Shown here one piece after another: positions 7,196 to 27,598 of a stretch of 63,311 nt of DNA. The notes beneath the pieces were generated by a model. That model ran no database searches. It saw nothing but the letters and a program-made list of their open reading frames with translations, and was not told the DNA's origin. The stretch covers positions 1-63,311 of IMG/VR virus record IMGVR_UViG_3300017645_000202. One strand, written 5' to 3'. The first letter of the stretch is position 1, and every line of letters starts with the position of its first letter. A program made the translations under genes and the position numbers. The stretch is from a virus. Taxonomy: Duplodnaviria > Caudoviricetes.

Positions 7196-7632
7196 GCGCG
7201 GATCCTCACCACCTTGGGCGGACCGTTCGCGAACGGTTCGTCAGCGGGCACCAGCTCATCGCCGACGTGCGCGAACAGCACGTAGCCGGGACCTTCGGCG
7301 ATGACGATATCGAGCAGCGCCGGCCCGATGCGCGCCACCTGAAAGCCGCAGATGGTTTGCGTGAGCACCGGATCGCGCGGCGGCAGCTTGTCCTCGAAGA
7401 AACCTTTCGCCTCATAGAAGGCCTGGCGTGGCGTATCGCCGGCGCCCCAGATGCCGCTGGTGTCGAAGACGGCCCACCTTTTTGCTGACACGGGCGGAAG
7501 CGTCGAAACATTCGACGGAGGTTCAGCGAGCGGATGGCCGGCGCTCGCGCCGGGCGCCGTTGGCGCCTGAGCACCTTCGGTGCTGGGAGCGAGAGAGGCG
7601 GTGGCCGCGCGCGTGTCGTCAATTGGCGGCAT
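7192..7632 (-). CDS. Hypothetical protein
   Basis: ATG 7632 with GGAGG upstream; low-complexity N-terminus followed by a globular part. Confidence 0.55.
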   Translation of the reverse strand: MPPIDDTRAATASLAPSTEGAQAPTAPGASAGHPLAEPPSNVSTLPPVSAKRWAVFDTSGIWGAGDTPRQAFYEAKGFFEDKLPPRDPVLTQTICGFQVARIGPALLDIVIAEGPGYVLFAHVGDELVPADEPFANGPPKVVRIRA

Positions 7633-8059: not shown

Positions 8060-8136
8060 CGATTCGTGCCCCCTAATCTGCGGGGCGCGGACGGCGGCCG
8101 GGAGGAATGCGCCGCGCCCACGCCCCGCAATGTCCC

Positions 8137-8424
8137 TCAGCCCCCGCTGCGGGAGTGTGCTGCGGCTGGCGCCGCCAACGTGCCGGCAAGCCGGCGTTCG
8201 ACGTCGTCGAGTTTCGCGAGCGCAAGGATGCCGCGCTGCTGTGCGTCGCGTGTGTGCTCGCGCTCGCGCCATGGCAGACGCGCGCCCTGGTCGTGGCGCT
8301 TGGCAACGAGCAGAAGAGCCTCGAGGGTGCCGCGCAGCTCGTCGCGCAGGGCGAACAGCGCGTGGCGCGCGTCGGCCTCTCGTCCCTCCGGGGTGCCGGC
8401 ATAGGCGCGCATGGCGCGCTCCAT
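8137..8424 (-). CDS. Hypothetical protein
   Basis: Helical-looking ORF in the leftward operon; start uncertain. Confidence 0.45.
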   Translation of the reverse strand: MERAMRAYAGTPEGREADARHALFALRDELRGTLEALLLVAKRHDQGARLPWREREHTRDAQQRGILALAKLDDVERRLAGTLAAPAAAHSRSGG

Positions 8425-8456
8425 TTCATCGCCGGAGGTGTCGCGTGACACGCCCA

Positions 8457-8786
8457 TTATCGCGACCTTCCGCGGTCGCTGGCTTCCTTGGCGGCCTGGA
8501 TGCGCTGGGCGCATTCGGTGCTGGAAGAGGGGCCGCCGGCGGCGGCAAGGGCATGAAAGACGACGTCGAGATCTGCCGTATGGGCAATCTCAGACAGCAT
8601 TTGTCTGGCTGCTGGTTCGGAAAGATCCGCTGCATCCACCGTTACGTGGTGCAGTTGTTCGAATTCTTTTGCGGCGAGCAGAACCCGGAAGGCGATATTG
8701 GCGCAGATTAACTCTGATGGCGGATAGACCGGTGGTCTCTCGCTACCCTTTGGTCCGACCTCGAAAATAAATGCTAGCTTCGACAT
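8457..8786 (-). CDS. Hypothetical protein (first gene of the leftward early operon)
   Basis: ORF directly downstream of the OL-like site. Confidence 0.5.
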   Translation of the reverse strand: MSKLAFIFEVGPKGSERPPVYPPSELICANIAFRVLLAAKEFEQLHHVTVDAADLSEPAARQMLSEIAHTADLDVVFHALAAAGGPSSSTECAQRIQAAKEASDRGRSR

Positions 8787-8825
8787 CGCAAATACACCCC
8801 AAACCGGAACGTCCCACATCGACGT

Positions 8826-8865
8826 GTAGGACAAATCCAACGTTCGGGCAATGGATTTGTTGGAT
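8826..8865. promoter_or_regulatory. OL-like operator region
   Basis: GTAGGAC-AA-ATCCAAC and GTTGGAT half-site are variants of the 9632-9647 palindrome. Confidence 0.55.
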
Positions 8866-8921
8866 GCGCTGACCCCAGGCGACGTTCCGGTCAGGAAATC
8901 CCCAGTGGATTACCGCGTAAG

Positions 8922-9554
8922 CTAGGCGCTGGGCGTCCAGCCGAGATCGGTATTCAGCGGATCAATAACGCCCACTATGACCCCGACGATCTGCGCGTCG
9001 TCCCTCTGGGTGTCCAGCGGGACGGCGTTGCCCTTCGAGGAGTTCGTGATGAGCAGCCGCGGGGGCACGTATTGCCGCAATAGCCGCACGGCCCGCCCGG
9101 GTTCGCCTGGCGGATGATAGGCGACCTGAACGGGCCGCAGCGGGCGCAGCGCATCCATCGCAGATTGGGAATCATCGACAACCAGCAGGTGGCCCGGCCG
9201 GATGCCGATGTTGTCGCAAACGTCGGAACCCGCCGTCCAAAGGTAGCGATTTGGGCCAATCAACGCTGCGAAAGGGTCGTTCTGATGAGGCTCATAAGGC
9301 GTCATATCGCTCTCGGTGAACCCTGGGAGCGCCTGCCCGTGACCCGCACCGAGGTGCGTAGGGTCCGCTTGCAGGATGATCGCCAGCTTGACGCGCTCCT
9401 CGAGCGGCAGATGCTTCTGCTTCCCCACCAGATACTCGTGCAAATATCCGCGGTGGCGGCCGAGCTGTGTTGAAACCCTCGACTCGCTAAATCGCATTTC
9501 GCGTAGCCGTTCGCGGATGAAGCGGCGAAGCGCATCCTGTTGGTCATCTTGCAT
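8922..9554 (-). CDS. CI-like phage repressor
   Basis: N-terminal HTH (SESRVSTQLGRHRGYLHEYL), degenerate S24-like C-domain (GIRPGHLLVVD...IVGVIVG), divergent from cro; alternative start 9590. Confidence 0.8.
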   Translation of the reverse strand: MQDDQQDALRRFIRERLREMRFSESRVSTQLGRHRGYLHEYLVGKQKHLPLEERVKLAIILQADPTHLGAGHGQALPGFTESDMTPYEPHQNDPFAALIGPNRYLWTAGSDVCDNIGIRPGHLLVVDDSQSAMDALRPLRPVQVAYHPPGEPGRAVRLLRQYVPPRLLITNSSKGNAVPLDTQRDDAQIVGVIVGVIDPLNTDLGWTPSA

Positions 9555-9586
9555 GGCCGTTAACTTATCCTGCACCCCCAGGTGCG

Positions 9587-9647
9587 GCATCCAACATAAT
9601 TAGCGCCAATTTATGATTGCCTCTTGACGGCGTTGGATGAATCCAAC
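9587..9647 (+). promoter_or_regulatory. OR-like operator and PR promoter
   Basis: TTGACG (9624-9629) followed by perfect inverted repeat GTTGGAT-GA-ATCCAAC (9632-9647); additional ATCCAAC half-site near 9589. Confidence 0.65.
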
Positions 9648-9658
9648 ATCCATGGATC

Positions 9659-9901
9659 ATGGAGACCGTCGAGCAATTCAGGATCCGAGTAGAGGCGTTC
9701 CTCGAAAGTACGGGCATGGCGAAGTCGAAACTCGGTCGTCTTGCCTGCAACGACCCGCGCTTCATCGACGATATGCGGGCCGGGATGGAGTTCCGCTCTG
9801 CGAAGGTTGGGCGCGTCGAGGCGTTCATGCGCGGTTACGAGGCCTGCCTCGCCGCAAGTACCGACGCGAAGGCGCAGGCGCACGAGTTGACGGTAGCGTG
9901 A
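9659..9901 (+). CDS. Cro-like regulator
   Basis: VEAFLESTGMAKSKLGRLACNDPRFIDDMRAG...RVEAFM, the alphaproteobacterial phage Cro-type pattern; divergent from cI. Confidence 0.8.
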   Translation: METVEQFRIRVEAFLESTGMAKSKLGRLACNDPRFIDDMRAGMEFRSAKVGRVEAFMRGYEACLAASTDAKAQAHELTVA

Positions 9902-10238
9902 AGCGGATGCGCTGGGCGCCGGGTTGGCCCCCGCGACGTTCAGAGGGTGCGCGTCCGCCGCACCGTGCCGTCCCTAGACGACGCGACCGATCCGGCTGGG
10001 CCCCATAGCAGCCGCCCGGGTCGGTGACCTCCAAGGGGGACAGGTAACGAGTACCCCCGACTTTTTCGGCCGGCGATGTCGAGCCGAAAGGGTGCCAGCG
10101 TCGAGCGCACCATGTGCGTTCCGCCCTGCCACCCGCCGGTGTGTCAGGACCTGTTGCGTCCGTTGCGTTCGCGTCTCGCTTTTTCTCTCTCACCCGGCCG
10201 GCGCCGCAATCGCCGGCCGGGCAACAGGGACGGGTCCC

Positions 10239-10913
10239 GTGCTCGACAACGTCGACGCCATCGCTGTGATTGCCGGGCTCGCGTGCATCGTGAGCGCGGT
10301 CGGGCTGCGGCTCGTCGACCGGCGCCATGATAAGCGCACCCGGCCGAGTCCCGTCCCCCGTCCCGGGTTGGACCCGGGGCGAGTCCCGGGGCAGGCGAGG
10401 TCCGGCCCGCGGGACGACAGCCGGGCCGGCGCGCCCGTTTCCATCATGCAACTCGGCACGCACGCGACCGCCGTCGAGTTCGTCGGCTGGATGCGCGCGA
10501 TGGGGTTCGCCGGATGCCGCCGCTCCGCTGCCGAGATCGTCGATTTTTACCGGTGGTTCTGCTCCGACCTGCACATCGCCCCGCTCGGCGAGGGCGAGTT
10601 TCTCGCGGCGCTGGGCAACCACCGGCAGGTGCGCAAAAAGCGCGACCGGATCAAGTGCCCCAAGACGGGCAAGGTGCTCAAGCTCGCGAGCGGCACGCCC
10701 GCGCGCACCCGCTATTACACCGTGCTCGATGCCGACACGGTGCGCCTGCCGACCGGCGTGGCGCCCGCTGCGCCCCGTGCTGAGTCCCGGCCCCAGACCC
10801 GGGAGTCCCGGGGGGATGGCCGGGGGCCGGTGCGCGCTCAGCCGCGCAAACAGGCCAATGCACGTCCATCCGCTGACGACCTGATCGCCGGCCACGAAAG
10901 GATCGCGGCATGA
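10239..10913 (+). CDS. Membrane-anchored hypothetical protein with a possible winged-helix domain
   Basis: TM segment AIAVIAGLACIVSAVGL, Pro/Arg linker, YRWFC...LGEGEFLAAL domain; start uncertain. Confidence 0.6.
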   Translation: MLDNVDAIAVIAGLACIVSAVGLRLVDRRHDKRTRPSPVPRPGLDPGRVPGQARSGPRDDSRAGAPVSIMQLGTHATAVEFVGWMRAMGFAGCRRSAAEIVDFYRWFCSDLHIAPLGEGEFLAALGNHRQVRKKRDRIKCPKTGKVLKLASGTPARTRYYTVLDADTVRLPTGVAPAAPRAESRPQTRESRGDGRGPVRAQPRKQANARPSADDLIAGHERIAA

Positions 10914-11338
10914 GCGGCTTTGTCGACAAGGTCGAGCGGCTTCCGCGCACATTCCTCACGGAGCGCGCGCAAGGCAAGCCCGCGCGCCGCAGCGTCGATG
11001 GGCCGACGGAGGAGGAAATTCACCGCTCCGTCATCGCTTGGCTTGAGCGTCGTGGCGCAGATCGTGTGTTTTTCTTCCACGTTCCGAACGGCGAGATTCG
11101 CCATCGCGGCGCGGCCGGAAAGCTGAAGGCGATGGGCACCAGGGCGGGCGTGCCTGACCTCGTGCTCATCAGGGACGGCCACGCGTACGGCCTGGAGATC
11201 AAGGCGGCAGGTGGGCGGCAATCGCCCGCGCAGCGGAACGTCGAGCAGCAATGGGAAAGGGCGGGCGCAACGTATGCCGTGACGCACGGTCTCGACTACG
11301 CGCTCGACCAACTGCGGGAATGGGGGCTGCTGGAATGA
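10910..11338 (+). CDS. VRR-NUC domain nuclease
   Basis: TEEEIH...FFHVPNGE...GTRAGVPDL...LEIKA..GRQSPAQ PD-(D/E)XK pattern. Confidence 0.9.
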   Translation: MSGFVDKVERLPRTFLTERAQGKPARRSVDGPTEEEIHRSVIAWLERRGADRVFFFHVPNGEIRHRGAAGKLKAMGTRAGVPDLVLIRDGHAYGLEIKAAGGRQSPAQRNVEQQWERAGATYAVTHGLDYALDQLREWGLLE

Positions 11339-11529
11339 GCAAGCAGGATTCCGGTTTCGTCGCACGCATCGCCGATGCGCTGCGCGGTGCTGTGCCGGTC
11401 AGCGACAGCGCACGCGCTGCGGCTGAGGGTGTGCGCGCCGCTTCGACCCGCGTCACAGCGTTGCCGAACGGACGGCTGCCGCCGCCGCCGACGCGGCCGG
11501 GGTACGAGGCTGATCTTTTAGACGACTGA
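11335..11529 (+). CDS. Hypothetical small protein
   Basis: ATGA overlap with the VRR-NUC gene. Confidence 0.5.
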   Translation: MSKQDSGFVARIADALRGAVPVSDSARAAAEGVRAASTRVTALPNGRLPPPPTRPGYEADLLDD

Positions 11530-11573
11530 CACGAGGGGATAGAGGCTTTGCTGATGGCGAACGGTTCACGAAC

Positions 11574-11711
11574 TGATGGCCGGCGCACTTGCGCCGAGCG
11601 CCCTTGGCGCTTGAGCCGCTGCGCGGCTGGTACGCGGCAGCCAAGGGCCCGTCATGGCGAAGCCATGCTCCGCATGGACGGCCGTCGCGGCGTTGCCGCG
11701 GCCATCAACGC
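11574..11711 (+). ncRNA. Structured repeat element E1 (multi-hairpin; candidate ncRNA)
   Basis: Closing stem TGATGGCC/GGCCATCA; hairpins CGGCGC-ACTT-GCGCCG, AGCGCC-CTT-GGCGCT, AGCCGC-TGC-GCGGCT, ATGGC-GAA-GCCAT, CGCGGC-GTT-GCCGCG. Confidence 0.55.
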
Positions 11712-11891
11712 TTTCGACAGTTGCCGCTGAGCGCTGCGTATCCGCGGGTGTCAGTAAAAGTTTGAGCCTCCGAGGCGGCAACCGCGGAGGCTCCAAGGTC
11801 GGAGCGCGGGGGGCGCTCCGTAGATGGGCATGGGGGTGCCCAGAACGACGCGCAGAATCTCATTCGCGCCGTTCTCGGTCAAGCCCCGTGA

Positions 11892-13082
11892 ATGAAAGAC
11901 GGGGACGGAGTGGCACACGAACTCTCGGGCATGTGCTGGCTGATCGATTTCCCATCACCGTCGATGAGGCTGGTGATGATGAAGATCTGCGACTGTGCAG
12001 ACGAAGACGGCACGAACATCTTTCCGTCCGTCGCCACGATCCAACGGGAGACGGGGCTCGGCCAGAGTACCGTCCGCGAATGCATCGCTGCGTTCGAGGA
12101 GGCAGGCCTTCTCATCGTGAAGGCGAACAAGTTCGGCAACCGTCAGGGCAAGACGACGACGATCCGGGAGCTGGACACCGACCGACTTCGCCTGATCACG
12201 GGTAAGCGTCGCCGCGGGCAGACGCCGATCCCGTCGACGCACGTTCTGCGTCGCGGCGAGATCGACATTCCAGCACGGTCCGGTGACAGCGACGAAACCA
12301 TTTCCGTCTTCGTGCCGGGCGCTGCGCTGCCCAGCTATGTGGATGCACGCGGTGAGCCGCGCGTCGCGCAAGCGTTTGCGCTTTTTCTGCGGGACGAGCA
12401 TGCCGCTGGTGAAGAGGGCACCCCTCCAGCCAGTGGAGGGGTAGATGCAGGCTCCACCCCTCCAGTGAGTGGAGGGGCACCCCTCCAGCCACTGGAGGGG
12501 TACCCCTCCAGCCAGTGGACCCCACCCCTCCAGCCAGTGGAGGGCACCCCTCCAGTGGCTGGACCCAACCCTTCACTTGACCCTTCCCTTAAAGACTCCC
12601 CCCCTCCCCCCCGCCGGCGGCGGGGGGTGAGAGAAGACGGGCTTCTCGACGAAGTTCGAAAGTCCAAGCGGCACTGTGGACGAGCGTTTGAAAAGCTGTT
12701 GGCGCCCCTGTTGACGAGGTTGCCGCTGAAAGCGCCCAAGCCAACGCAGGCGCTGGAAGCACTGGCAGACCTTGCAGAGGCTCAGCAGGACGACGTTCTG
12801 GACGAAGCGTTGTCGCTACTCACCACGCCGGGCACCAAGAACTATCGCGAGTTCGACGTTCGAGTTCCCAACATCGAAGGCGCCATCGACGCGGCAAACA
12901 AGATCATCACCAACCGCAAGATGCGCGACCATGGCCCGCTACTGTGGCGCGGCTCTGCAGCCTTCAACGAAGCGATTGCCAAGGTTCAAGCCGTCCACCC
13001 GGAATTCGCCTGGGAGCTGAGCCAGCGGGACATGGTCAAGCGTAGCGAGCTCAAGGCCTACGGCGTGGAGCAGCAGCCATGA
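11892..13082 (+). CDS. Phage replication initiator (N-terminal HTH, lambda-O-like layout)
   Basis: RLVMMKICDCADEDG..IFPSVATIQRETGLGQSTVRECI HTH; internal iterons; probable start GTG 11910. Confidence 0.85.
   Translation: MKDGDGVAHELSGMCWLIDFPSPSMRLVMMKICDCADEDGTNIFPSVATIQRETGLGQSTVRECIAAFEEAGLLIVKANKFGNRQGKTTTIRELDTDRLRLITGKRRRGQTPIPSTHVLRRGEIDIPARSGDSDETISVFVPGAALPSYVDARGEPRVAQAFALFLRDEHAAGEEGTPPASGGVDAGSTPPVSGGAPLQPLEGYPSSQWTPPLQPVEGTPPVAGPNPSLDPSLKDSPPPPRRRRGVREDGLLDEVRKSKRHCGRAFEKLLAPLLTRLPLKAPKPTQALEALADLAEAQQDDVLDEALSLLTTPGTKNYREFDVRVPNIEGAIDAANKIITNRKMRDHGPLLWRGSAAFNEAIAKVQAVHPEFAWELSQRDMVKRSELKAYGVEQQP
12420..12563. repeat. Replication origin iterons (6 copies)
   Basis: ACCCCTCCAGnnnnTGGA(GGGG) at 12420, 12456, 12479, 12502, 12524 and 12546; four copies are near-palindromic and two lack the GGG arm. 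Confidence 0.85.
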
Positions 13083-13567
13083 TCGCCGCCGCGCCATACC
13101 ACGAGCCGGCCGAGCGCGATGATCCGCGCAACGCGCTGCTCGACACCATGGCCAACCAGATCGCCGATCTGCTCGAAAGCGCCCTGCGCAACGATGTTCT
13201 CGAGCCGCTGCTCGCGCGCATCGAGAGCCAGGCGCCCGCGCTGCATCGCCGGCTCGGCATCGCAATTCCCGCGCCGGCCGCCGCCGCGGCGCCGTGCGGT
13301 GCTCCCGCAGCACCAGCGGCCGGCGTGGGACGTGTGGATACGACGGAGGCCGAGCTGCGCCTCGCCACCGTGCTGGCGGCGCTGAAGATGGCGGCGCCAA
13401 AGACCACCGCTGCGCGCGAGCTGCACGATAGGGCGCGCATGGTCGTGCTGTCGGACCTCGCTGCGTTGCGTGCCGCCGGCAGCGCCATCGCCGCGCGGCG
13501 GCACCGTGACGTGCCGAAGCCAGAGCCGGTCGGGTTCTTCGCCGACGACGCTGGGGGTGGGATGTGA
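13079..13567 (+). CDS. Hypothetical protein
   Basis: ATGA-coupled to the initiator gene. Confidence 0.65.
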   Translation: MIAAAPYHEPAERDDPRNALLDTMANQIADLLESALRNDVLEPLLARIESQAPALHRRLGIAIPAPAAAAAPCGAPAAPAAGVGRVDTTEAELRLATVLAALKMAAPKTTAARELHDRARMVVLSDLAALRAAGSAIAARRHRDVPKPEPVGFFADDAGGGM

Positions 13568-13620
13568 TGTTTGTTCCTGACACGAGCGGCGGGAAGCATG
13601 GCGTGCGGTTGGCGTTGCCC

Positions 13621-13694
13621 GCGTTGATGGCCGCGCCAACGGCGCGGGGCCCCTTGGGCCCTGGCTACCGCGTGCAAGCGGAGCGGGCGTCAAC
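13621..13694 (+). repeat. Structured repeat element E2
   Basis: GTTGATG/CGTCAAC closing stem; CGCGCC-AAC-GGCGCG, GGGCCC-CTT-GGGCCC, CCGC-GTGCAA-GCGG hairpins; directly before the MT-A70 RBS. Confidence 0.7.
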
Positions 13695-13709
13695 CGGATG
13701 GAGCGCGCC

Positions 13710-14369
13710 ATGAGCATCCATCCGCCAGCCACATCGTTCGTGCAGCCCGGCATGTTCGACGACGTGCGCCACACGAACTGGCCGTTCTCGCCGCTCGAGC
13801 CGCAGGCCTACGACCTCATCATGGCCGACCCGCCGTGGAGGTTCGAACTCTATTCGGAACGCGGCGAGGGCAAGAGCGCCCAGGCGCACTACGCCACCAT
13901 GACGCTCGACGACATCGCACACCTGCCGGTGGCGGATCTGGCGCGCGGAAATTGCCTGCTGTGGCTGTGGGCGACGGCGCCGATGCTCGACAAGCAGATC
14001 GTCATCCTGAAGCGCTGGGGTTTTCGCTTCGTCACCTCCGGCGTGTGGGTGAAGAAGACCGTCACAGGCAAGACCGATTTCGGCACCGGCTACGTGCTGC
14101 GCTCCGCGCACGAGCCCTTCCTCATCGGCGCGATCGGCGAGCCGCAGACCTCGCGCTGTGTGCGCTCGGTGGTCGAAGGCGTGCGGCGCGAGCATTCGCG
14201 AAAGCCGGAAGCAGCTTATCGCGCAGCGGAGGCGCTCGTGCCGGGCAGCGTACGCCGCGCCGATCTCTTCACCCGCGAAACACGCCCGGGCTGGGAAGCC
14301 TGGGGGAATGAAGTCGGGAAGTTTGATGAGCTTTCTGCTTCGGACACGAGCGGAGGGAAGCATGCCTGA
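13710..14369 (+). CDS. MT-A70 family N6-adenine methyltransferase
   Basis: IMADPPW, HYATM, LWLWAT, WGFRF...WVK, GYVLRSAHE, HSRKPE, LFTRE..PGWEAWGNE. Confidence 0.93.
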   Translation: MSIHPPATSFVQPGMFDDVRHTNWPFSPLEPQAYDLIMADPPWRFELYSERGEGKSAQAHYATMTLDDIAHLPVADLARGNCLLWLWATAPMLDKQIVILKRWGFRFVTSGVWVKKTVTGKTDFGTGYVLRSAHEPFLIGAIGEPQTSRCVRSVVEGVRREHSRKPEAAYRAAEALVPGSVRRADLFTRETRPGWEAWGNEVGKFDELSASDTSGGKHA

Positions 14370-14389
14370 TGGCTGCGCATTCGCGAGTG

Positions 14390-14513
14390 GATGGCCGCGG
14401 CAACGCCGCGGGGCCCCTTGGGCCCTGGCTGCCGCTCCTAAGCCGCGCAGCGGCTCAGGCGCGTCATGGCCGAGCCATGCTTCGCATGGACGGGCGCCCG
14501 GCGCGAACGCCGG
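14390..14513 (+). repeat. Structured repeat element E3
   Basis: CGCGGC-AAC-GCCGCG, GGGCCC-CTT-GGGCCC, AGCCGC-GCA-GCGGCT, ATGGC-CGA-GCCAT, CCGGCG-CGAA-CGCCGG; shares direct and inverted blocks with E1. Confidence 0.7.
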
Positions 14514-14539
14514 ATTTCAACACAACGGAGGGCAGATCA

Positions 14540-14962
14540 ATGACTGAGACGACTCCACAGGTGTCAGTAGAAAAAATAGATCGCATGGAGCTGCGCCAGC
14601 GCATCGATATGCACGAAGCGCAACGGGCGAAGATCGTAGACGAGATGAACGAAGCGTCGGCTTCGTTCAATGCGCGCATCGAGGTCATCCAGCGCGAGCG
14701 GATGGAGGCGACGGCGGCCATCCAGGCGCGGCTCGATGCGCACGACAAGGTGCGGGGCATCTATGACGACGTGCTCGAATTCGACGACAGCGATGATGAA
14801 AACCCCATTCGCTGCTGTGTCACCGGGCTGATCCTGCTCGATGACGATGTGCTCGTGAAAGACGCGTACGGCCGCCGGGCGCTGGCCGCCGCCGTGAACT
14901 GGCCGGACCCGCCGCAGGGCCTGCCCGACGTCGAAGAGTATGAGGACGAGGAAGCGGCGTGA
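14540..14962 (+). CDS. Hypothetical coiled-coil protein
   Basis: GGAGG RBS before ATG 14540. Confidence 0.7.
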   Translation: MTETTPQVSVEKIDRMELRQRIDMHEAQRAKIVDEMNEASASFNARIEVIQRERMEATAAIQARLDAHDKVRGIYDDVLEFDDSDDENPIRCCVTGLILLDDDVLVKDAYGRRALAAAVNWPDPPQGLPDVEEYEDEEAA

Positions 14963-15363
14963 TGGATGCGATCGGCAAAAACACCGCGCGGGGCCGCGAT
15001 CTACGCCACCGCGCCGAGACGATCGCGGGCAAAGAGCGCTCGCTCGACGAGCTGAGCGGCCAAGTGAAAGAGCTCAAGGCGGAGATCAGGGACCTCTACA
15101 AGGACGCCGCGAGCAACGGCTATTCGCTCAAGGTTCTGCGCGGCGTGATGAAAGAATTTCACATGCCGGAAGGCGAGCGCGAGGCGCACTACCAGATGGA
15201 GATGGAGTTCGCCGCTGAGGTGGAGATCTATCGGCACGCGCTGGGCTTCGTAAAAGACGACTCCATTGAGACGACGATCTCAATCAACGGCGGCCCGGCC
15301 GCCCCAATCAGCGTCGTGCGGGCGGCCGTCGACGAGGTCAAGCGCGCCAAAGTGCCGGCATGA
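14962..15363 (+). CDS. gapR: GapR/DUF2312 (UPF0335)-like DNA-binding protein
   Basis: KELKAEIRDLYKDAASNGYSLKVLRGVMK..M...ER...YRHALG. Confidence 0.75.
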   Translation: MDAIGKNTARGRDLRHRAETIAGKERSLDELSGQVKELKAEIRDLYKDAASNGYSLKVLRGVMKEFHMPEGEREAHYQMEMEFAAEVEIYRHALGFVKDDSIETTISINGGPAAPISVVRAAVDEVKRAKVPA

Positions 15364-15743
15364 GCATCACCTTGAAAGAACTTCTCGGCGATGGCGCGCG
15401 CGCCGAAGGCTTCGAAGAATTCACGGCCTTCGTCGACGGGCTCGTGGCCCAGAAACCGGAAGGGATGACCCCAGACGATATGTGCTTCGTGCGCCTGGTG
15501 CGCATCATGGCCACCGCGGCAACCGAAGGCGCCAACCAGGAAACGTCGTCGTTTGGCATCGACGTGCCTGTCGTGCTGCTCGAGCTATGCCGCGCGGCCG
15601 GGTTTGCCGTCGCTAGCGCTGCGCTTTCCGTGAGCGACGAGAACACCGACCTCGACCGGCTGCGCGAAGGGATCATGGAGAGTATGGCGCTGGGCGTCGA
15701 CTTCATGATCGAGCACACCCGCAAGCACCGGGTGGCGGCATGA
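15360..15743 (+). CDS. Hypothetical protein
   Basis: ATGA-coupled ORF. Confidence 0.7.
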   Translation: MSITLKELLGDGARAEGFEEFTAFVDGLVAQKPEGMTPDDMCFVRLVRIMATAATEGANQETSSFGIDVPVVLLELCRAAGFAVASAALSVSDENTDLDRLREGIMESMALGVDFMIEHTRKHRVAA

Positions 15744-16057
15744 AGCAGCGCCCCAGCATCGACGACATCATCAACGCCGCATGCGCGGCGACCGCCATCT
15801 CACGGCCGCAGTTCCACGGCGTGCGGCGGCCGGCGCATCTCGCCTATGCGCGCCAGATCGCGGCCCACGTCGCACATGTGCACGGCTATTCGTATCCGCA
15901 GATCGGACGCGCGTTCGGGCGCGACCACACCACGGTTTTGCACAGCGTGCGAAAGATCGAAGCCCTGCGCGACGCGGGGCATGTCGGCATCGTCGCGGCG
16001 CTTGCGCGGGTGCAGGAGCTTGCGGCGTCGTACGCGGCGGGACGGGTGCCGGCATGA
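15740..16057 (+). CDS. Stand-alone DnaA C-terminal (domain IV) HTH protein
   Basis: ARQIA...SYPQIGRAFGRDHTTVLHSVRKIE DnaA signature. Confidence 0.88.
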   Translation: MKQRPSIDDIINAACAATAISRPQFHGVRRPAHLAYARQIAAHVAHVHGYSYPQIGRAFGRDHTTVLHSVRKIEALRDAGHVGIVAALARVQELAASYAAGRVPA

Positions 16058-16236
16058 CGAACAGGCAGATCGCCATTTTCTCCTACGGGCTGGCGTGCGG
16101 GCTGCTGATGGCGGCCGTCGAGCTGTTCGTGCACGCCGCGCTCGACCGCCGGTTGCTGGTGACGGCGCTCGCGGGCGGGGCGGCTCTGACGGGGCTGATC
16201 GGCCTCGTGCATGCGCGGGGGAGGGTTGAGAGATGA
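16054..16236 (+). CDS. Small two-TM membrane protein
   Basis: MTNRQIAIFSYGLACGLLMAAVELFV...; coupled ORF. Confidence 0.6.
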   Translation: MTNRQIAIFSYGLACGLLMAAVELFVHAALDRRLLVTALAGGAALTGLIGLVHARGRVER

Positions 16237-17105
16237 TTTTTTCTGGCACGAGCTTCGAGAAGCTTTGCGTGCGCCAGGCGTTACACGAGGGGATGGCCGC
16301 GGCAACGCCGCGGGCGCCCTTGGCGCCTGAGCGGCCTGCGGCCGCTGGGCGTGTCGTCCCGACGCTGTTCTCGGCGCCGATGGTGCGCGCGAACATCCGC
16401 GAAGTGCAGCGGCCTGGCACCGGCAAGACGCAGACGCGGCGGGTGCTGGCAAAACACAACACGAGCGTTGATGGATGCGGCGCTCGGCTGTTCGATGAGC
16501 TTGAGTTCGAACACGACGACGTCTTCGTCGATTCGGGCCCGAGCCCAACCGGAAATCCAGGACCCTATTTGAAGGTGCCACGCCGCGGCGAAGACACCGT
16601 GCATAGGGTCTATCCCAAGATCGCGGCCGGCGACGTGCTGTGGGTGCGGGAGACGTGGGCTCCGCTCGACGCTCTGACACACGGCGATCCAGGCACGACC
16701 GCGTTAGCGAACAACGGTTTCTACCGCGCCGACAACAGCACCACCGACGGTGAGATCAGGCGCTGGATACCATCTATCCACATGCCCCGCTGGGCGTCCC
16801 GCCTCACGCTCGAAGTGACCGGCGTCAAGGTCGAGCGCCTGCAGGACATCAGCGAGGCTGATGCGATCGCGGAGGGCATTCACCAGCAATCGACGACAGG
16901 ATGGTTTTCTGTTCCCGGCGTCAATGGTGCCGGCACCACCGCCCGAGCGGCGTATGCGCTCCTCTGGAACGCGATCAACGGCGGCGGCGCGTCCGGCCGG
17001 AGACCGGCAATAGATTGGGACGCCAACCCGTGGGTGGTCGCCGTCACCTACAAGCCGCACCTGATGAACGTGGATGCCTTCCTCGCGCAGCGGGTGGCGG
17101 CATGA
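16233..17105 (+). CDS. ASCH/PUA-like conserved phage protein
   Basis: PTLFSAPMVRA...KTQTRR, GDVLWVRETW, WIPSIHMPRWASRLTLEVTGVKVERLQDISEADAIAEG, WDANPWV. Confidence 0.8.
   Translation: MIFSGTSFEKLCVRQALHEGMAAATPRAPLAPERPAAAGRVVPTLFSAPMVRANIREVQRPGTGKTQTRRVLAKHNTSVDGCGARLFDELEFEHDDVFVDSGPSPTGNPGPYLKVPRRGEDTVHRVYPKIAAGDVLWVRETWAPLDALTHGDPGTTALANNGFYRADNSTTDGEIRRWIPSIHMPRWASRLTLEVTGVKVERLQDISEADAIAEGIHQQSTTGWFSVPGVNGAGTTARAAYALLWNAINGGGASGRRPAIDWDANPWVVAVTYKPHLMNVDAFLAQRVAA
16289..16360 (+). repeat. Structured repeat element E4
   Basis: GGGATGGC/GTCGTCCC closing stem with two G-U pairs; CGCGGC-AAC-GCCGCG, GGCGCC-CTT-GGCGCC, AGCGGCC-TGC-GGCCGCT. Confidence 0.7.
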
Positions 17106-17374
17106 CGATCTGCCCGCGATGCAACGGCGCAAAGCGCATCTTTGTCTTCGCCGACGGTCACGATGCCGACGGCAACTTCGTCAGCACCAGCGGCGAGCGA
17201 GATTGCCTGACCTGCAAGGGCGTCGGCGAGATCACCGATGACCATGCGAACCGGATCAAGATCGGCAAGTCGCTGCGCGATGACCGCGTGGCGAAAGGTT
17301 TCGGCCTGCGCGAGGCCGCGCTGCTGCGCGGGTGCACGCCTGCCGAGCTTTCCGCAATCGAGCAAGGCAACTGA
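17102..17374 (+). CDS. Zinc-finger (CxxCxGxx) plus XRE-type HTH protein
   Basis: CPRCNG...CLTCKGVG, then LRDDR...GLREAALLRGCTPAELSAIEQG. Confidence 0.75.
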   Translation: MTICPRCNGAKRIFVFADGHDADGNFVSTSGERDCLTCKGVGEITDDHANRIKIGKSLRDDRVAKGFGLREAALLRGCTPAELSAIEQGN

Positions 17375-17406
17375 CCGGCGGCGTTTTACAGGGGGATCAA
17401 TCGGCG

Positions 17407-17685
17407 ATGACCGACAAACGGGAAGCCAACATCGACGAGCTGCTGACGCTGGACGAGCGGCGACTGGAGCTGATGACCGTCCGCCATAACCTCCGCAAGG
17501 CGCTCTACATCGACGTGGTCGTGTGGGGGTTCTCGCACCGCATCTATCGCTCCGATGCGGAGAAGGTGTTCGCCGACATAGACGCGGCGGCAGGGCGGGA
17601 GCTGAGGGAGATCGAGGAGAAGTTCCGCACCTTGGGCGTCACGCCGTCCGAGTGGACGCCGCCGCCGGGGGACGAGGCGCCATGA
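17407..17685 (+). CDS. Hypothetical protein
   Basis: G-rich RBS; coupled to the methyltransferase gene. Confidence 0.65.
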   Translation: MTDKREANIDELLTLDERRLELMTVRHNLRKALYIDVVVWGFSHRIYRSDAEKVFADIDAAAGRELREIEEKFRTLGVTPSEWTPPPGDEAP

Positions 17686-19253
17686 GCGATCGACGGGGGA
17701 AGCGCGGGCTTATCATTGACAACTTCGCCGGCGGCGGCGGCGCGTCGCTCGGCATCGAGCAGGCGCTGTGGGCGCCGCCAGATTACGCCATCAATCATGA
17801 TCCGATCGCGTTGGGGGTGCACACCGTCAACCACCCGCACACCGAGCACCGCATCGAGGACGTGTTCCACACGGATCCGCGTGAGCTCGCCAAGGGCCGG
17901 CCGATTGCACTCGTGTGGCTGTCGCCGGACTGCAAGCATCACAGCAAAGCCAAGGGCGGCAAGCCGCGCGACAAGAACATCCGCGCGCTGGCGTGGGTGG
18001 CGATCCGCTGGGCGTGCCTACCGCAGCCGATGAAGCCGGCCATCATCGCCCTGGAGAACGTGGAGGAGTTCCAGGACTGGGGGCCGCTCACCGCCGACGA
18101 CATGCCGTGTCCGGCACGCAAGGGGCAAACGTTCGCTCTCTTCGTGCAGCGGCTGCGCCAGGCGGGCTATGCCGTCGAATGGCGGGAGCTGCGCGCCTGC
18201 GATTACGGCGCGCCGACCATCCGCAAGCGACTGTTTCTCATCGCCCGCTCGGACGGCCGGCCGATCCGCTGGCCGGCGCCGACGCACGGCGATCCGAAAT
18301 CCCTCGAAGTGGCGGCGGGCACGCTGAAGCCTTATCGGACGGCGGCGGAATGCATCGACTGGTCGGTGCCGTGCCCGTCCATCTTCGGGCGCGAGCGGCC
18401 GTTGGCCGAGAAGACGATGGCGCGCATCGCCCGCGGGGTGAAGCGCTTCGTGCTCGATGCGGCGGAGCCGTTCATCGTCAATCTGACACATAGGGGCCGC
18501 GTTGAGGCGCTGGGGGAGCCGTTCAAAACGGTAACCGGCGCTCATCGCGGGGAGAAGGCGCTCGTAGCGCCGTTCTTCATTCCGCGTCACGGCGAGCACG
18601 CCGCCCAGGAGCCGCGCTGCCGCGACGTCGAGCAGCCAATGCCCACGGTCACCGCCACCGCCAACGGCGCCGGCCTCGTCGCCGCGTTCATGGCACAGCA
18701 CAACACCGACATGGTCGGGCACCCGATGACGGCGCCGGTTTCCACCATCGTCGGCAAGGGCTGCACGCAGGCTCTGGCGGCCGATTTCCTCACCAAGTTC
18801 TACGGCACGTCAACCGGGCAGGACATGCGTACGCCGTTCTCCACGGTGACGGCTGACGGCACCCACCTCGGCGAGGTGCGCGCCTTCCTGATGAAATACT
18901 ACGGCACCGGCGGGCAACTGCAGAGCCTCGACGTGCCGGCGCACACGTCGACCGCCAAGGCGCGGCTCGGGCTCGTGACGGTGGCCGGTGTCGAGTGGCA
19001 GATCGTCGACATCGGTATGCGCATGCTGCTGCCGCGCGAACTGGCGCGGGCGCAGGGCTTTCCTGACAGCTACGTGCTGGAGCGCCTCGCCGACGGCACG
19101 CCGGTCACCAAGACGGATCAGATCCGCCTCATCGGCAACAGCGTGTGCCCGCCGGTGGCGCGCGCCATCCTCGAGGCGAACTTCGGGAACGAGGTCGTGT
19201 CGGAGACGCGCGGGCCGGATGTGCGGCCGGTGGCGGGGAGGGCAGCAGCGTGA
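17682..19253 (+). CDS. C5-cytosine DNA methyltransferase
   Basis: DNFAGGGGAS, SPDC, LENV, YGAPTIRKRLF, RELARAQGF, IGNSV. Confidence 0.95.
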   Translation: MSDRRGKRGLIIDNFAGGGGASLGIEQALWAPPDYAINHDPIALGVHTVNHPHTEHRIEDVFHTDPRELAKGRPIALVWLSPDCKHHSKAKGGKPRDKNIRALAWVAIRWACLPQPMKPAIIALENVEEFQDWGPLTADDMPCPARKGQTFALFVQRLRQAGYAVEWRELRACDYGAPTIRKRLFLIARSDGRPIRWPAPTHGDPKSLEVAAGTLKPYRTAAECIDWSVPCPSIFGRERPLAEKTMARIARGVKRFVLDAAEPFIVNLTHRGRVEALGEPFKTVTGAHRGEKALVAPFFIPRHGEHAAQEPRCRDVEQPMPTVTATANGAGLVAAFMAQHNTDMVGHPMTAPVSTIVGKGCTQALAADFLTKFYGTSTGQDMRTPFSTVTADGTHLGEVRAFLMKYYGTGGQLQSLDVPAHTSTAKARLGLVTVAGVEWQIVDIGMRMLLPRELARAQGFPDSYVLERLADGTPVTKTDQIRLIGNSVCPPVARAILEANFGNEVVSETRGPDVRPVAGRAAA

Positions 19254-20623
19254 AAAAGCCCCGCAAGCGCTACGACGCAGCCGACAACGGCGCTCGCGGC
19301 TACAACGCCGCTGTCGACGCCATCCGCATGGAAGGCGTAAAGGCCGGGCGCTTCCTGCCGCTGGCCAGCCGGCCGGAGGAAATCAAAGCCTCGCCCATCG
19401 TGGAGGAGGCGCGGCAGATCGGCCCGTGCACGCTCTATCGCGGTGACTGTAGGCAGATCGTGGCACTGCTGGAAGGCATGGCCGCCTGCGTCACCGACCC
19501 TCCCTATGAACTCGGCTTCATGGGCAAGAGCTGGGACTCGAGCGGCATCGCCGCTGACTGGCGCACCTGGGGCGCGGTGCGCATTGCGCTGCGGCCCGGT
19601 GCACACCTCGTCGCCTTTGCCGGCTCGCGCACCTATCACCGCATCGCCAGCGCTGTGGACGATGCCGGGTTCGATGTGCGCGACCAGATCATGTGGATCT
19701 ACGGCTCCGGGTTTCCGAAATCGCGCAAGGTATCCGATGACCTGGAGCGCGCTGGCATTGGTCACTACACCGTCAATGCGTGGGATGGCTGGGGCACCGC
19801 GCTGAAGCCGGCGCACGAGCCGATCGTGTTCGCGCGCAAGCCGCTGAGCGAGGCGACGATTGCCGCCAACGTCCTGCGCTGGGGAACGGCGGCACTGAAT
19901 ATTGATGCCTGCCGCATGACACCGGCCCAGGACCATCAGGACAAGTGCGCCAGTGTCGTGGGCGCCGAGAGCAGGCGCACATCCACCGTGTATAGCGAGA
20001 ACAAGGCTAAGCGGCGCGACAGCTCGCGCAAGGGTGAGGCGAGCGCCGACCGGCGATATGCCGATGAGGGCGTGACGGGGTTTGCGCCCCTGCCTGGGCC
20101 GCGCGGTGGAGACGTGCTCGGCCGCTGGCCGGCGAACATGCTGACGGACGGCTCGCACGAGGTGATCGAGGCGTTCCCCGCTTCGGCGCGCGATGCCATC
20201 CGTTTCTTCTACGCACCCAAGGCCGACAAGGCAGAGCGCGAATTCGGTATGGAGGACGCCCCGACCAAGGCCGGTGGCATGCGCTCCAACACCAGCGGCC
20301 AGCACATCACCCGGCGCGACGGCGGGGCGCCAGGACCGCGCGCCAATCATCACCCGACCGTCAAGCCCGTCGACCTGATGCGCTGGCTGTGCCGGCTGGT
20401 GACGCCGCCGGGAGGCACGGTGCTCGATCCGTTCATGGGCTCCGGCTCGACGGGCATCGCCGCCGTGCGCGAGGGCTTCGGCTTCGTCGGCATCGAGCAG
20501 GACGCCGACTATTTCGACATCGCCTGCCGGCGCATCGAGGCGGCAGTGCGGCTGCTCGACGTGGAGCCCGACATCGTGCGTGCCGTACAGCGTGTCCGTG
20601 CTGAGCAGGGGGAGCTGATCTGA
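19250..20623 (+). CDS. N6-adenine/N4-cytosine DNA methyltransferase (beta class)
   Basis: VTDPPY near the N-terminus; HPTVKP and VLDPFMGSGSTG near the C-terminus. Confidence 0.93.
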   Translation: MKKPRKRYDAADNGARGYNAAVDAIRMEGVKAGRFLPLASRPEEIKASPIVEEARQIGPCTLYRGDCRQIVALLEGMAACVTDPPYELGFMGKSWDSSGIAADWRTWGAVRIALRPGAHLVAFAGSRTYHRIASAVDDAGFDVRDQIMWIYGSGFPKSRKVSDDLERAGIGHYTVNAWDGWGTALKPAHEPIVFARKPLSEATIAANVLRWGTAALNIDACRMTPAQDHQDKCASVVGAESRRTSTVYSENKAKRRDSSRKGEASADRRYADEGVTGFAPLPGPRGGDVLGRWPANMLTDGSHEVIEAFPASARDAIRFFYAPKADKAEREFGMEDAPTKAGGMRSNTSGQHITRRDGGAPGPRANHHPTVKPVDLMRWLCRLVTPPGGTVLDPFMGSGSTGIAAVREGFGFVGIEQDADYFDIACRRIEAAVRLLDVEPDIVRAVQRVRAEQGELI

Positions 20624-20624
20624 G

Positions 20625-20924
20625 ATGACCGCCGCGCCGCCAGCGTGCGAGCAAACCATCGGCGCCCTGCGCGCCGCCGGTCAGCGGCTGCACATCCTGT
20701 GCCGCGGCTGCGGGTGGGAGCGCGAATATCGCCTCGACCGCGGTGCATTCGCCCGCGTGCCGGATGCGGCGGCGCTGGGCGCGGTGCGTGCGCGCCTTTC
20801 CTGCACGCAATGCGGCGAGCGGCAGAAGGTCTGGGTGGCCGCCGAGTACGCCGACGCCGACGCCGCCGCACGCCGCGAGTGGGGCTGGACGGAGGAAGAG
20901 ATCGCGGCGGGTTCGAAGGGCTGA
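20625..20924 (+). CDS. Zinc-ribbon protein (paralog of 30180-30494)
   Basis: CRGC...CTQC; WGWTEEE C-terminus. Confidence 0.7.
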   Translation: MTAAPPACEQTIGALRAAGQRLHILCRGCGWEREYRLDRGAFARVPDAAALGAVRARLSCTQCGERQKVWVAAEYADADAAARREWGWTEEEIAAGSKG

Positions 20925-20944
20925 AACGAGAGGGCACTATTCGC

Positions 20945-27596: not shown

Positions 27597-27598
27597 CG

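What the first reader, a model, noticed from the sequence alone, without database searches (positions are those of the whole stretch)
11526..16360. Family of four dispersed cloverleaf-like hairpin elements with conserved triloops and covarying stems
Seen: E1 (11574-11711), E2 (13621-13694), E3 (14390-14513) and E4 (16289-16360) all contain GATGGCC at the start and are each preceded by ACACGAG plus a purine tract (11529, 13580, 14344, 16283). Each is a run of short GC hairpins. Hairpin 1 is CGCGGC-AAC-GCCGCG in E3/E4 and CGCGCC-AAC-GGCGCG in E2, a compensatory pair swap. Hairpin 2 keeps loop CTT on three different stems (GGGCCC, GGCGCC, AGCGCC/GGCGCT). Hairpin 3 keeps loop TGC (AGCCGC/GCGGCT, AGCGGCC/GGCCGCT). 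The closing stems of E2 and E4 need G-U pairs that work only on the + (transcribed) strand. All sit at or near gene starts in the rightward early operon. Inference: a structure-selected RNA (or ssDNA) motif that I do not recognise. It could be a protein-binding, antitermination or processing element repeated along the operon.
Basis: partly seen in the sequence, partly recalled or inferred. Interest (0 to 1): 0.88.

Follow-up and report, generated by a model that had tools for sequence, protein, structure and literature searches.

The report
Host-type hairpin repeats inside a prophage
The four "cloverleaf" elements are copies of a small hairpin-rich DNA repeat that is scattered by the dozen over Hyphomicrobium-like bacterial chromosomes and has inserted itself between the early genes of this prophage, so it is not a phage-specific regulatory RNA.

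Summary
The sequences are real and non-random, but the unit is longer than described. It has a T-rich leader, a CTGACACGAGC box, GATGGCC exactly 45 nt after the ACGAG core, then three GC hairpins. The window holds six copies, not four.

The same unit occurs in 28 of 39 genomes of one genus-level group that includes a MAG titled Hyphomicrobium sp. There are up to 63 scored copies per genome, and the genomes tested lack this prophage.

A provirus with a 97%-identical methyltransferase lacks E2, E3 and E4. E3 is a clean 199-nt insertion.

Stems covary strongly, almost only by GC/CG swaps and without strand-specific wobble. Units sit just after stop codons or tRNA 3' ends in sense orientation (37 of 60). 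In 33 of 33 contigs they lie on the G-rich strand.

No Rfam family matches. No Y1 transposase was found in 15 genomes.

Best reading: a REP/BIME-like dispersed repeat, apparently undescribed, probably spread as single-stranded DNA hairpins at replication forks. It was secondarily inserted into the prophage early operons.

The parts
7473..7600 (+). It lies in the leftward operon, antisense to transcription, and overlaps the 5' end of the minus-strand ORF that starts at 7634.
   Evidence: R1 hit at 7483-7572, 47.4 bits. Sequence and ORF are shown. An orthologous copy is present in the related provirus G186 (L253 2233-2322, 43 bits).
11512..11632 (+). E1 forward unit: leader, box, hairpins 1-3.
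   Evidence: R1 hit at 11524-11616, 56 bits. The same site is occupied in L168 (1755-1845, 70.8 bits), but its hairpin 1 and 2 stems differ in a compensatory way.
11651..11679 (+). Nested 29-nt module D (GTC...GAC double hairpin) inside E1.
   Evidence: Exact pattern match. The same 29-mer, with up to 3 mismatches, is found 27 times in G001, 6 in G155, 3 in G092, 2 in G185 and 1 in G157. The reversed-pattern control gives 0.
11639..11756 (-). E1 inverted unit, with its box at 11745-11755 read on the minus strand. Module D is nested in its hairpin-2 region.
   Evidence: R1 hits of 32.9 and 40.2 bits. Inverted repeats I1, I2, I5 and I8 support it.
13568..13697 (+). E2 unit, inserted at the stop/start overlap between ORF162 and the MT-A70 methyltransferase gene.
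   Evidence: R1 hit at 13575-13666, 99 bits. In L168 this junction is 48 nt against 194 nt here, and it carries an ATGA overlap.
14324..14522 (+). E3: one unit, then module D (14463-14491), then a terminal hairpin. It now encodes the last codons and the stop of the methyltransferase.
   Evidence: R1 hit at 14339-14430, 93 bits. L168 positions 4572 and 4573 are contiguous where the window has these 199 nt. Module D is matched.
16234..16357 (+). E4 unit, directly after the stop of a 60-aa ORF (16054-16236). It is read through in frame as the N-terminus of the phrog_874 gene (16233 or 16293 to 17105).
   Evidence: R1 hit at 16241-16332, 91 bits. The phrog_874 match starts at residue 41 of the ORF. 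L168 has a different 213-nt stretch with a small ORF here, and its homologue begins MNKPKPILFSAPMVRANIR.

Best explanation
The elements are copies of a dispersed, mosaic, hairpin-rich chromosomal repeat of the REP/BIME/RIME kind. The repeat belongs to a Hyphomicrobium-like group of bacteria and has inserted into this prophage.

Shown:
- The unit is about 110 nt. It has a TGA/T-rich leader, a CTGACACGAGC box, a second CGCGAG box, GATGGCC, and three GC-only hairpins.
- The stems covary, and the hairpin-2 loop stays CTT.
- The unit occurs singly, in tandem arrays and as inverted pairs.
- It usually lies 4-16 nt after a stop codon or a tRNA 3' end, in sense orientation.
- In the five high-copy genomes sampled it always lies on the G-rich strand.
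- Its presence differs between orthologous sites in chromosomes and between related proviruses.

Inferred:
- The top strand equals the lagging-strand template. The unit therefore probably spreads as folded single-stranded DNA at replication forks, in a fixed orientation and without target duplication. This is the manner of IS200/IS605-type elements, but the enzyme is not identified.
- In the prophage the copies are passengers. E2-E4 are recent, because they score near the consensus and are missing in the nearest relative. U0 and E1 are older.
- The copies are co-transcribed with the early operons. There they break ATGA stop/start couplings and supply a new C-terminus to the methyltransferase and a new N-terminus to the phrog_874 protein.
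- They may act as REP-like 3'-UTR hairpins that slow mRNA decay or attenuate read-through.
For: Architecture. ACGAG-N40-ATGG is present in all four elements and in three chromosomal loci found by pattern search. Alignments A1 and A2 show the shared unit.

Chromosomal spread.
- 28 of 39 genomes of the genus-level group have R1 hits at E<=1e-5, 433 hits in all, up to 62 per genome with only 110 candidates scored per genome. G185 alone gives 63 hits.
- 8 of 151 genomes of the family sample have hits.
- None of 5 unit-bearing genomes holds window 9600-29000 beyond the repeats themselves, apart from one 79%-identical gene in G013.

Indel polymorphism.
- E3 is a clean 199-nt insertion relative to L168. 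E2 adds about 146 nt. E4 is replaced by a small ORF in L168.
- Only 2 R1 hits occur in 80 methyltransferase-related viral loci totalling 596,081 bases.
- Orthologous chromosomal sites hold 1 versus 6 copies (L124 and L133), and 2 or 3 copies (L126, L052, L080).

Structure. 98.3% of cells pair, with 147 double-change cells against 47 shuffled. Pair types are CG 418 and GC 375, with AT+TA 5, GT+TG 7 and AC+CA 5.

Position. Of 60 array-first copies, 33 follow a long high-GC3 sense ORF and 4 follow tRNA-Val or tRNA-Asp. The opposite-strand control gives 9 of 60.

Strand.
- All 67 units in 40 of 40 windows, from 33 of 33 contigs, lie on the G-rich strand (binomial p = 2e-10).
- In G185, 59 of 63 hits are on one strand. 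The exact box is found 0 times forward and 10 times reverse in a strand-symmetric scan.
- Coding content in the G185 windows is balanced: 32,090 aa on + against 27,621 on - (summed).
- The window is G-rich on + in all 7 bins, and 5 of its 6 units are on +.

No match to any Rfam family at gathering score or at E<=1.
Against: - The provirus comes from a metagenome, and its own host genome was not found: 0 of 39 genomes matched the late genes. 'Host repeat' therefore rests on related genomes.
- The window has 6 copies in 63 kb, all within 9 kb. This is denser than the capped chromosomal counts (63 in 4.1 Mb), so selection for them in the phage is not excluded.
- No mobilising enzyme was found. 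Y1_Tnp: 0 of 15 genomes. Y2_Tnp: 1 of 6 high-copy and 1 of 8 copy-free genomes. IS110: 2 of 6 against 5 of 8.
- No target duplication or defined ends could be derived. L169 carries a methyltransferase tail that resembles the 5' part of E3, so loss in L168 instead of gain here is not fully excluded for E3.
- The replication reading rests on GC skew alone. G185 shows negative skew in 20 of 20 windows with no switch. G079 has 6 hits on + in its low-skew half.
- Inverted pairs are common in low-copy genomes.
- No RNA data exist for any copy.
Confidence: 0.8

Rival explanations
1. A functional RNA element of 3' UTRs. The unit is kept because, once transcribed behind a gene or tRNA, its hairpins block 3' exonucleases or attenuate read-through, as described for E. 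coli REPs. Its orientation follows transcription, and copies spread by recombination or an unknown route. This partly overlaps the best explanation, which allows the same effect after insertion.
For: - Sense orientation 4-16 nt after stop codons or tRNA ends in 37 of 60 array-first copies, against 9 of 60 in the control.
- Inverted pairs between convergent genes place each box next to its own gene's stop.
- Stable GC hairpins.
- A REP acting as both terminator and stabiliser is reported in bioRxiv 10.64898/2026.03.23.713779 (abstract read).
- REPs lie mostly downstream of coding regions (PMC3733652, abstract).
Against: - G-U does not exceed A-C (7 against 5 cells), and A-U pairs are almost absent. 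This is not the usual signature of RNA stems.
- Orientation follows the G-rich strand in 33 of 33 contigs, although genes are near balanced between strands. Transcription alone does not explain this.
- U0 in the window is antisense to its operon.
- No U-tract follows the hairpins.
Confidence: 0.25
2. One reading: a phage-encoded cis-acting RNA (antitermination, processing or protein binding) repeated along the rightward early operon.
For: - Five of six copies share the operon's strand and sit between early genes.
- The copies are locally dense.
- The hairpins are stable, with + strand z-scores from -1.06 to -3.05.
Against: - E2, E3 and E4 are absent from the provirus whose methyltransferase is 97% identical.
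- Only 2 hits occur in 80 related viral loci.
- Hundreds of copies lie on chromosomes without the phage.
- One copy lies antisense in the leftward operon.
- No Rfam match, including no c4 RNA match.
Confidence: 0.04
3. A classical REP/REPIN family moved by a RAYT, or an ordinary MITE with terminal inverted repeats moved by a DDE transposase.
For: - High copy number, intergenic location, palindromic hairpins, inverted doublets.
- Module D starts with a (C)GTC tag and A-T first pairs, like the CGTC-tagged REPs of alphaproteobacteria (PMC3733652, section 6).
Against: - PF01797 was found in 0 of 15 genomes while positive controls matched.
- The three main hairpins carry no GTAG or CGTC foot.
- Single units have one box only, so they have no terminal inverted repeats.
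- No duplication is seen at the E3 empty site.
- The paper itself says CGTC REPs lack a dedicated transposase (abstract).
Confidence: 0.07
4. A chromosome-polarity signal. The strict G-rich-strand orientation would reflect selection for a replication- or segregation-oriented function, in the way that Chi or FtsK-orienting sequences are polar.
For: 33 of 33 contigs agree in orientation. G185 has 59 of 63 hits on one strand.
Against: - 11 of 39 genomes of the group have no copy at all, and counts range from 1 to 63. An essential polarity signal would not vary like this.
- The units are 110 nt long and occur in tandem arrays.
- Copies come and go between orthologous sites.
Confidence: 0.04

Closest known systems
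REP / BIME elements of enterobacteria and pseudomonads (REPINs, with RAYT/TnpAREP)
   Same: - Dispersed, high-copy, GC-rich palindromic units in intergenic DNA.
- Mostly found behind genes.
- Combined into mosaics, tandem arrays and inverted doublets.
- Stems kept by compensatory change.
- Copy sites differ between relatives.
   Different: - The unit is about 110 nt with three hairpins and two conserved boxes, not a single 20-40 nt palindrome with a GTAG foot.
- No Y1 transposase was found in 15 genomes.
- Orientation is strictly on the G-rich strand.
CGTC-tagged REPs of alphaproteobacteria (Di Nocera et al. 2013, PMC3733652; abstract and section 6 read)
   Same: - Alphaproteobacterial host.
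- Located downstream of coding regions.
- No dedicated transposase known.
- Some copies lie inside genes.
- The nested module D begins with (C)GTC followed by A-T pairs.
   Different: - The paper describes stems of 8-9 bp, loops of 4-5 nt and CCA tails. Module D and hairpins 1-3 do not fit these measures.
- Hyphomicrobium does not occur in the paper's main text. Its supplementary species lists could not be read.
Rhizobium-specific intergenic mosaic elements (RIME), Sm-repeats
   Same: Mosaic intergenic repeats of Hyphomicrobiales/Rhizobiales with conserved sequence and secondary structure and unknown function (passages of PMC2573895).
   Different: No sequence comparison was possible, because no RIME reference is held by the tools. 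The host group here is different.
IS200/IS605 family (IS608, ISDra2) and their non-autonomous derivatives
   Same: - Hairpins recognised in single-stranded DNA.
- Insertion into the lagging-strand template at forks (PMC6006769, passages).
- Hence a strong orientation bias.
- No target duplication.
   Different: - No TnpA (Y1) in the genomes searched.
- The unit has no left and right ends flanking a cargo.
- The mechanism here is inferred from strand bias only.
Rickettsia palindromic elements (RPE), Correia/ERIC-type co-transcribed repeats
   Same: - Small repeats that land inside or at the ends of genes and are read through in frame. Here these are E4, U0 and the methyltransferase tail in E3.
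- They are co-transcribed with neighbouring genes.
   Different: These families are unrelated in sequence and host. What is said of them here is recalled, not tested.

Membership tests
REP/REPIN-RAYT system | A cognate Y1 HUH transposase (RAYT, Pfam PF01797) in the genome | tested here: not met
   0 of 15 genomes: 5 high-copy, 5 copy-free and 5 further unit-bearing. The control genomes matched in 6 of 14. MAG incompleteness is a caveat.
REP/REPIN-RAYT system | A single 20-40 nt imperfect palindrome with a GTAG/GTGG (or CGTC) tetranucleotide at its foot | tested here: not met
   Hairpins 1-3 have no such tag in alignments A1 and A2. Only the nested module D starts with (C)GTC.
REP/BIME-like dispersed repeats in the broad sense | Many copies, intergenic, palindromic, combined in mosaics, variable between relatives | tested here: met
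   433 hits in 28 of 39 genomes. Tandem arrays and inverted pairs are seen. Orthologous sites hold 1 versus 6 copies.
MITE | Terminal inverted repeats and target-site duplication | tested here: not met
   Single units carry one box only. The E3 filled site shows no duplication when compared with the empty site in L168.
MITE | A parent insertion sequence with matching ends | not tested
   Only phyletic checks of Y2_Tnp and IS110 were run, and neither tracks copy number.
IS200/IS605-type single-strand elements | Orientation bias with respect to replication | tested here: met
   Units lie on the G-rich strand in 33 of 33 contigs. G185 has 59 of 63 hits on one strand. Replication direction is inferred from GC skew, not measured.
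IS200/IS605-type single-strand elements | TnpA Y1 transposase | tested here: not met
   PF01797 in 0 of 15 genomes.
Integron attC sites / gene cassettes | Sites bound cassettes that move as units within an array | tested here: not met
   The methyltransferase flanked by E2 and E3 is present without either element in L168 and L169. Units are dispersed over whole chromosomes. intI was not searched.
Phage antitermination or processing RNAs (nut, put and the like); c4 RNA | Conserved at fixed operon positions among related phages; for c4, a match to the Rfam model | tested here: not met
   E2-E4 are absent in the nearest relative. There are 2 hits in 80 related loci. No Rfam match at gathering score or at E<=1.
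RIME (Rhizobium-specific intergenic mosaic elements) | Sequence likeness to RIME1 or RIME2 | not testable with these tools
   No reference sequence is held. Only descriptive passages were read.

The most novel reading that the evidence does not exclude
The unit represents an undescribed class of replication-strand-locked repeat. It is a three-hairpin, roughly 110-nt element that inserts as single-stranded DNA just behind stop codons and tRNA ends, always on the lagging-strand template. It is moved by an enzyme that is not a Y1 transposase. It is active enough to have entered temperate phage genomes recently, where it rewires translational coupling and donates gene termini. Its presence in a virus would then also serve as a marker of the host genus.
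Probability: 0.3. Interest if true: 0.62.

Novelty: new variant of a known kind. Interest (0 to 1): 0.42.

Why it matters
For the scan, the lesson is that a striking "structured RNA family" in a prophage can be host-type selfish or repetitive DNA. Covariation alone does not show an RNA function.

For mobile-DNA biology, this family combines three things. The units sit next to stop codons and tRNA ends. They keep complete co-orientation with GC skew in the genomes sampled. No RAYT gene was found. That combination points to a mobilising activity still to be found.

For phage biology, there are two consequences. The copies give a sequence-based hint to the host group of an uncultured soil provirus. 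They also show how such repeats remodel operons, through lost ATGA coupling, a new methyltransferase C-terminus and a new N-terminus of a conserved phage protein.

Tried and rejected
- RNAalifold on the MAFFT alignment A1 found almost nothing, because the hairpins were out of register. I replaced it with a hand-specified structure on A2 and a covariance model.
- The first genome-contig scan used a 20-mer that was too loose. Only 3 loci (L027, L052, L080) carried the full element. The first viral scan gave 2 chance hits in portal genes.
- I first read the GTGTCAG at 14558-14567 and the GTTCGTGCAG at 13733 as right-hand inverted ends of E3 and E2. Comparison with L168 shows both are native coding sequence, so I withdrew this.
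- A peptide reading (MAAPTARGPLGP...) is rejected. The compensatory stem changes alter the residues, and the frames differ between copies.
- A sigma-54 or sigma-70 promoter reading of the box was considered from the sequence. It was dropped for lack of a fitting second element, and I did not run the promoter scan.
- I suspected that the one-strand bias in G185 was an artefact of the capped first look. A strand-symmetric exact-pattern scan (0 forward, 10 reverse) and full cmsearch on fetched windows (30 on -, 4 on +) reject that.
- Host search: no genome of the genus-level group matched the late genes (0 of 39, with only 7 candidates scored each).
- Sequencing runs: no RNA holder is listed. The holders are soil-metagenome DNA runs that may be the source of the window.
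- Literature: searches turned up no paper describing such repeats in Hyphomicrobium. I saw listings and abstract starts only, and many journals are not in the library. PMC8266576 holds none of the words lagging, orientation bias, replication fork or leading strand.
- Supplementary files were not opened. Di Nocera's Additional file 1 could list further species.
- My first closing-stem counter mishandled bulges. One search replaces it.
- Rows dropped: the three L139 hits (the same DNA as L080) were left out. L128, L127, L167(-), L137, window 11639(-), L052(+), L136 and L165 were left out of the fold counts.

Full report
**1. Observation**

The region was read directly. GATGGCC followed by hairpin 1 occurs at 13626, 14390 and 16292 on the + strand, and inverted at 11685-11706. 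With up to three mismatches this gives 4 matches against 0.01 expected, and none of 100 shuffles reached 4.

Fold z-scores are modest and not clearly better on the + strand (+: -3.05, -2.17, -1.06, -2.02; -: -3.27, -1.41, -1.76, -1.70).

In all four elements ACGAG lies exactly 45 nt before ATGGCC, and a T-rich leader precedes the box CTGACACGAGC. In E4 the homologous box is at 16246.

E1 is a forward unit plus an inverted unit. E1 and E3 each contain a 29-nt double-hairpin module, called D here, at 11651-11679 and 14463-14491.

**2. Context**

The window is a 63.3-kb IMG/VR provirus record with 64% G+C. The elements lie in the early and replication module:
- a replication initiator with HTH_36 (11892-13082)
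- ORF162
- an MT-A70 methyltransferase
- ORF140
- a GapR-like gene
- a Bac_DnaA_C HTH gene
- a phrog_874 gene

A covariance model (R1) covering the box through hairpin 2 finds six copies in the window when run with filters off:
- 7483-7572 (+), 47 bits
- 11524-11616 (+), 56 bits
- 11756-11680 (-), 33 bits (40 bits over 11639-11756)
- 13575-13666 (+), 99 bits
- 14339-14430 (+), 93 bits
- 16241-16332 (+), 91 bits

The next best hit scores 20 bits. The copy at 7483 lies antisense in the leftward operon, inside the 5' part of a minus-strand ORF.

**3. The same unit on chromosomes**

A pattern scan of species-representative genomes gave mostly chance hits. Three loci, however, carried the whole element with the same 45-nt spacing but different hairpin-2 stems. 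Two of them are the same chromosomal site between convergent genes. That site holds three tandem units in one genome and an inverted pair with module D in the other.

The genomes behind these loci hold many more copies on many contigs, often at contig ends.

With R1 the distribution is as follows:
- 8 of 151 genomes sampled from the family have a hit at E<=1e-5.
- 28 of 39 genomes of the genus-level group have hits. This group contains a MAG titled Hyphomicrobium sp.
- That group gives 433 hits in all, with up to 62 per genome although only 110 candidates per genome were scored.
- One 4.1-Mb single-contig genome, G185, gives 63 hits.

Five unit-bearing genomes were searched with 19.4 kb of the prophage. 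They share only the repeats and one 79%-identical gene. Module D is an independent repeat, with 27 copies in G001, 6 in G155 and 3 in G092 (which has no R1 hit), and a reversed-pattern control of 0.

**4. Insertion polymorphism in phages**

Of 80 viral loci encoding relatives of the methyltransferase (596,081 bases), only the two closest carry any unit, one each. Against L168, whose methyltransferase is 97% identical in protein, the window compares as follows:
- **E3.** Window 14324-14522 (199 nt) is missing cleanly. L168 positions 4572 and 4573 are adjacent, and its methyltransferase stop overlaps the next start.
- **E2.** The junction is 48 nt in L168, with an ATGA overlap, against 194 nt in the window.
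- **E4.** A different 213-nt stretch with a small ORF stands in its place.
- **E1 and U0.** The E1 forward unit is shared with L168, and U0 is shared with G186, the provirus record that holds L168.

The shared copies score 43-71 bits, and the window-only copies score 91-99 bits. This fits older and younger insertions.

The insertions have consequences for the genes, read directly from the sequence:
- The methyltransferase now ends inside E3 (...KFDELSASDTSGGKHA*, against ...KFNGGQNDD* in L168).
- The phrog_874 ORF runs in frame through E4. Its family match begins only at residue 41.

One caveat applies. L169 has a methyltransferase tail that resembles the first 30 nt of E3. Loss in L168 rather than gain here is therefore not fully excluded for that site.

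**5. Structure and covariation**

On 73 copies aligned to R1 (70 distinct), 98.3% of cells form pairs. There are 147 double-change cells against 47 +/- 4.5 in shuffles, and 9 of 12 pairs vary on both sides. Slid controls pair at 37-54%. This alignment is fitted to the model, which favours the structure.

The changes are almost only GC/CG swaps: CG 418, GC 375, AT+TA 5, GT+TG 7 and AC+CA 5. G-U does not exceed its antisense counterpart A-C. The data therefore give no sign of selection on the sense RNA as opposed to DNA hairpins.

The hairpin-2 loop is CTT in 48 of 70 copies. A closing stem around three hairpins appears in only 18 of 62 fixed-frame folds.

**6. Position and orientation**

Sixty copies are the first of their array. 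Of these, 33 begin within 16 nt after the stop codon of a long, high-GC3 ORF on the same strand. Four more begin 7-8 nt after tRNA-Val or tRNA-Asp. The mirror-image control gives 9 of 60.

In five high-copy genomes, all 67 units in 40 windows from 33 contigs lie on the strand that is G-rich over the surrounding 10-20 kb (40 of 40 windows, 33 of 33 contigs, binomial p = 2e-10).

In G185, 59 of 63 hits are on the minus strand. The exact box occurs 0 times forward and 10 times reverse. Coding capacity in the sampled windows is near balanced between strands.

By the established rule that the leading strand is G-rich, the unit's top strand has the sequence of the lagging-strand template. IS608 and ISDra2 insert into that template at forks (PMC6006769, passages). 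This step is inference.

It is complicated by two observations:
- G185 has negative skew in 20 of 20 windows from 0.10 to 4.02 Mb, with dnaA at 2.77 Mb.
- G079 has hits on + in a half of the chromosome with near-zero skew.

**7. Known families**

No Rfam family matches, either at gathering score over the whole window or at E<=1 over 7300-16600. The only weak hits there are microRNA models on the iteron-like repeats at 12382-12564.

Transposase searches gave these results:
- Y1_Tnp (RAYT, IS200/IS605): 0 of 15 genomes, with working controls.
- Y2_Tnp: 1 of 6 high-copy and 1 of 8 copy-free genomes.
- IS110: 2 of 6 high-copy and 5 of 8 copy-free genomes.

Neither Y2_Tnp nor IS110 follows copy number.

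The family works like REP/BIME or RIME repeats. It shares features with the CGTC-tagged REPs of alphaproteobacteria: it lies downstream of genes, no dedicated transposase is known, and some copies lie inside genes (PMC3733652, abstract and section 6). It does not meet the defining features of REP-RAYT, MITE, attC or phage antitermination RNAs.

**8. Verdict**

What is there is a dispersed, strand-locked repeat that follows gene ends, belongs to a Hyphomicrobium-like group of bacteria, and has repeatedly entered proviruses. How it moves is inferred, not shown.

Noticed in passing
window 12416-12574: Five roughly 22-nt direct repeats (CACCCCTCCAGCCAGTGGAGGGG-like, each partly palindromic) lie inside the replication-initiator gene. 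They look like iterons of a phage origin placed within the initiator gene. They also draw spurious microRNA hits from Rfam.
   Followed up: no
G185:C1 (loci L257-L276): In this 4.10-Mb single-contig genome, GC skew is negative in 20 of 20 sampled 20-kb windows from 0.10 to 4.02 Mb (-0.013 to -0.101), although dnaA lies at 2.77 Mb. No polarity switch was seen, which would be a chromosome-wide departure from strand parity.
   Followed up: partly
window 11651-11679 and 14463-14491; G001 and other genomes: The 29-nt module D (GTC...GAC, two overlapping hairpins) is a separate dispersed repeat that nests inside other repeats and hairpin loops. It has 27 copies in G001 and also occurs in G092, which has no main unit. 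It begins with the (C)GTC tag typical of alphaproteobacterial REPs.
   Followed up: partly
L161 570-750 and 1500-1675; L162 1420-1590 and 2404-2578: In two genomes the units follow tRNA-Val and tRNA-Asp genes by 7-8 nt, in sense orientation.
   Followed up: partly
L169 4570-4650: The methyltransferase of this relative has a C-terminal tail (KFDASLSATGDS...) whose DNA resembles the leader and box of E3. It may be a decayed unit or the ancestral tail.
   Followed up: no
window 13627-13713: E2 creates a 28-codon ORF that starts at the element's ATG. Its TGA overlaps the methyltransferase ATG at 13710 as an ATGA. This may restore translational coupling that the insertion broke (read, not tested).
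   Followed up: no
window 58161-58255 (-) and 19519-19596 (+): Weak model hits of 20.1 and 18.6 bits in the late region. They may be decayed units or chance.
   Followed up: no
window 17523-19253 and 13698-14369: The provirus carries two DNA methyltransferases: a C-5 cytosine methylase (PF00145) and an MT-A70 enzyme. It also carries GapR-like and DnaA_C-type DNA-binding genes.
   Followed up: no
L248, L249, L252 (IMG/VR contigs): Only 5 viral contigs in the whole collection match the box-plus-GATGG pattern. Three of them hold 2-7 units each. The unit may therefore mark viruses of this host group.
   Followed up: partly
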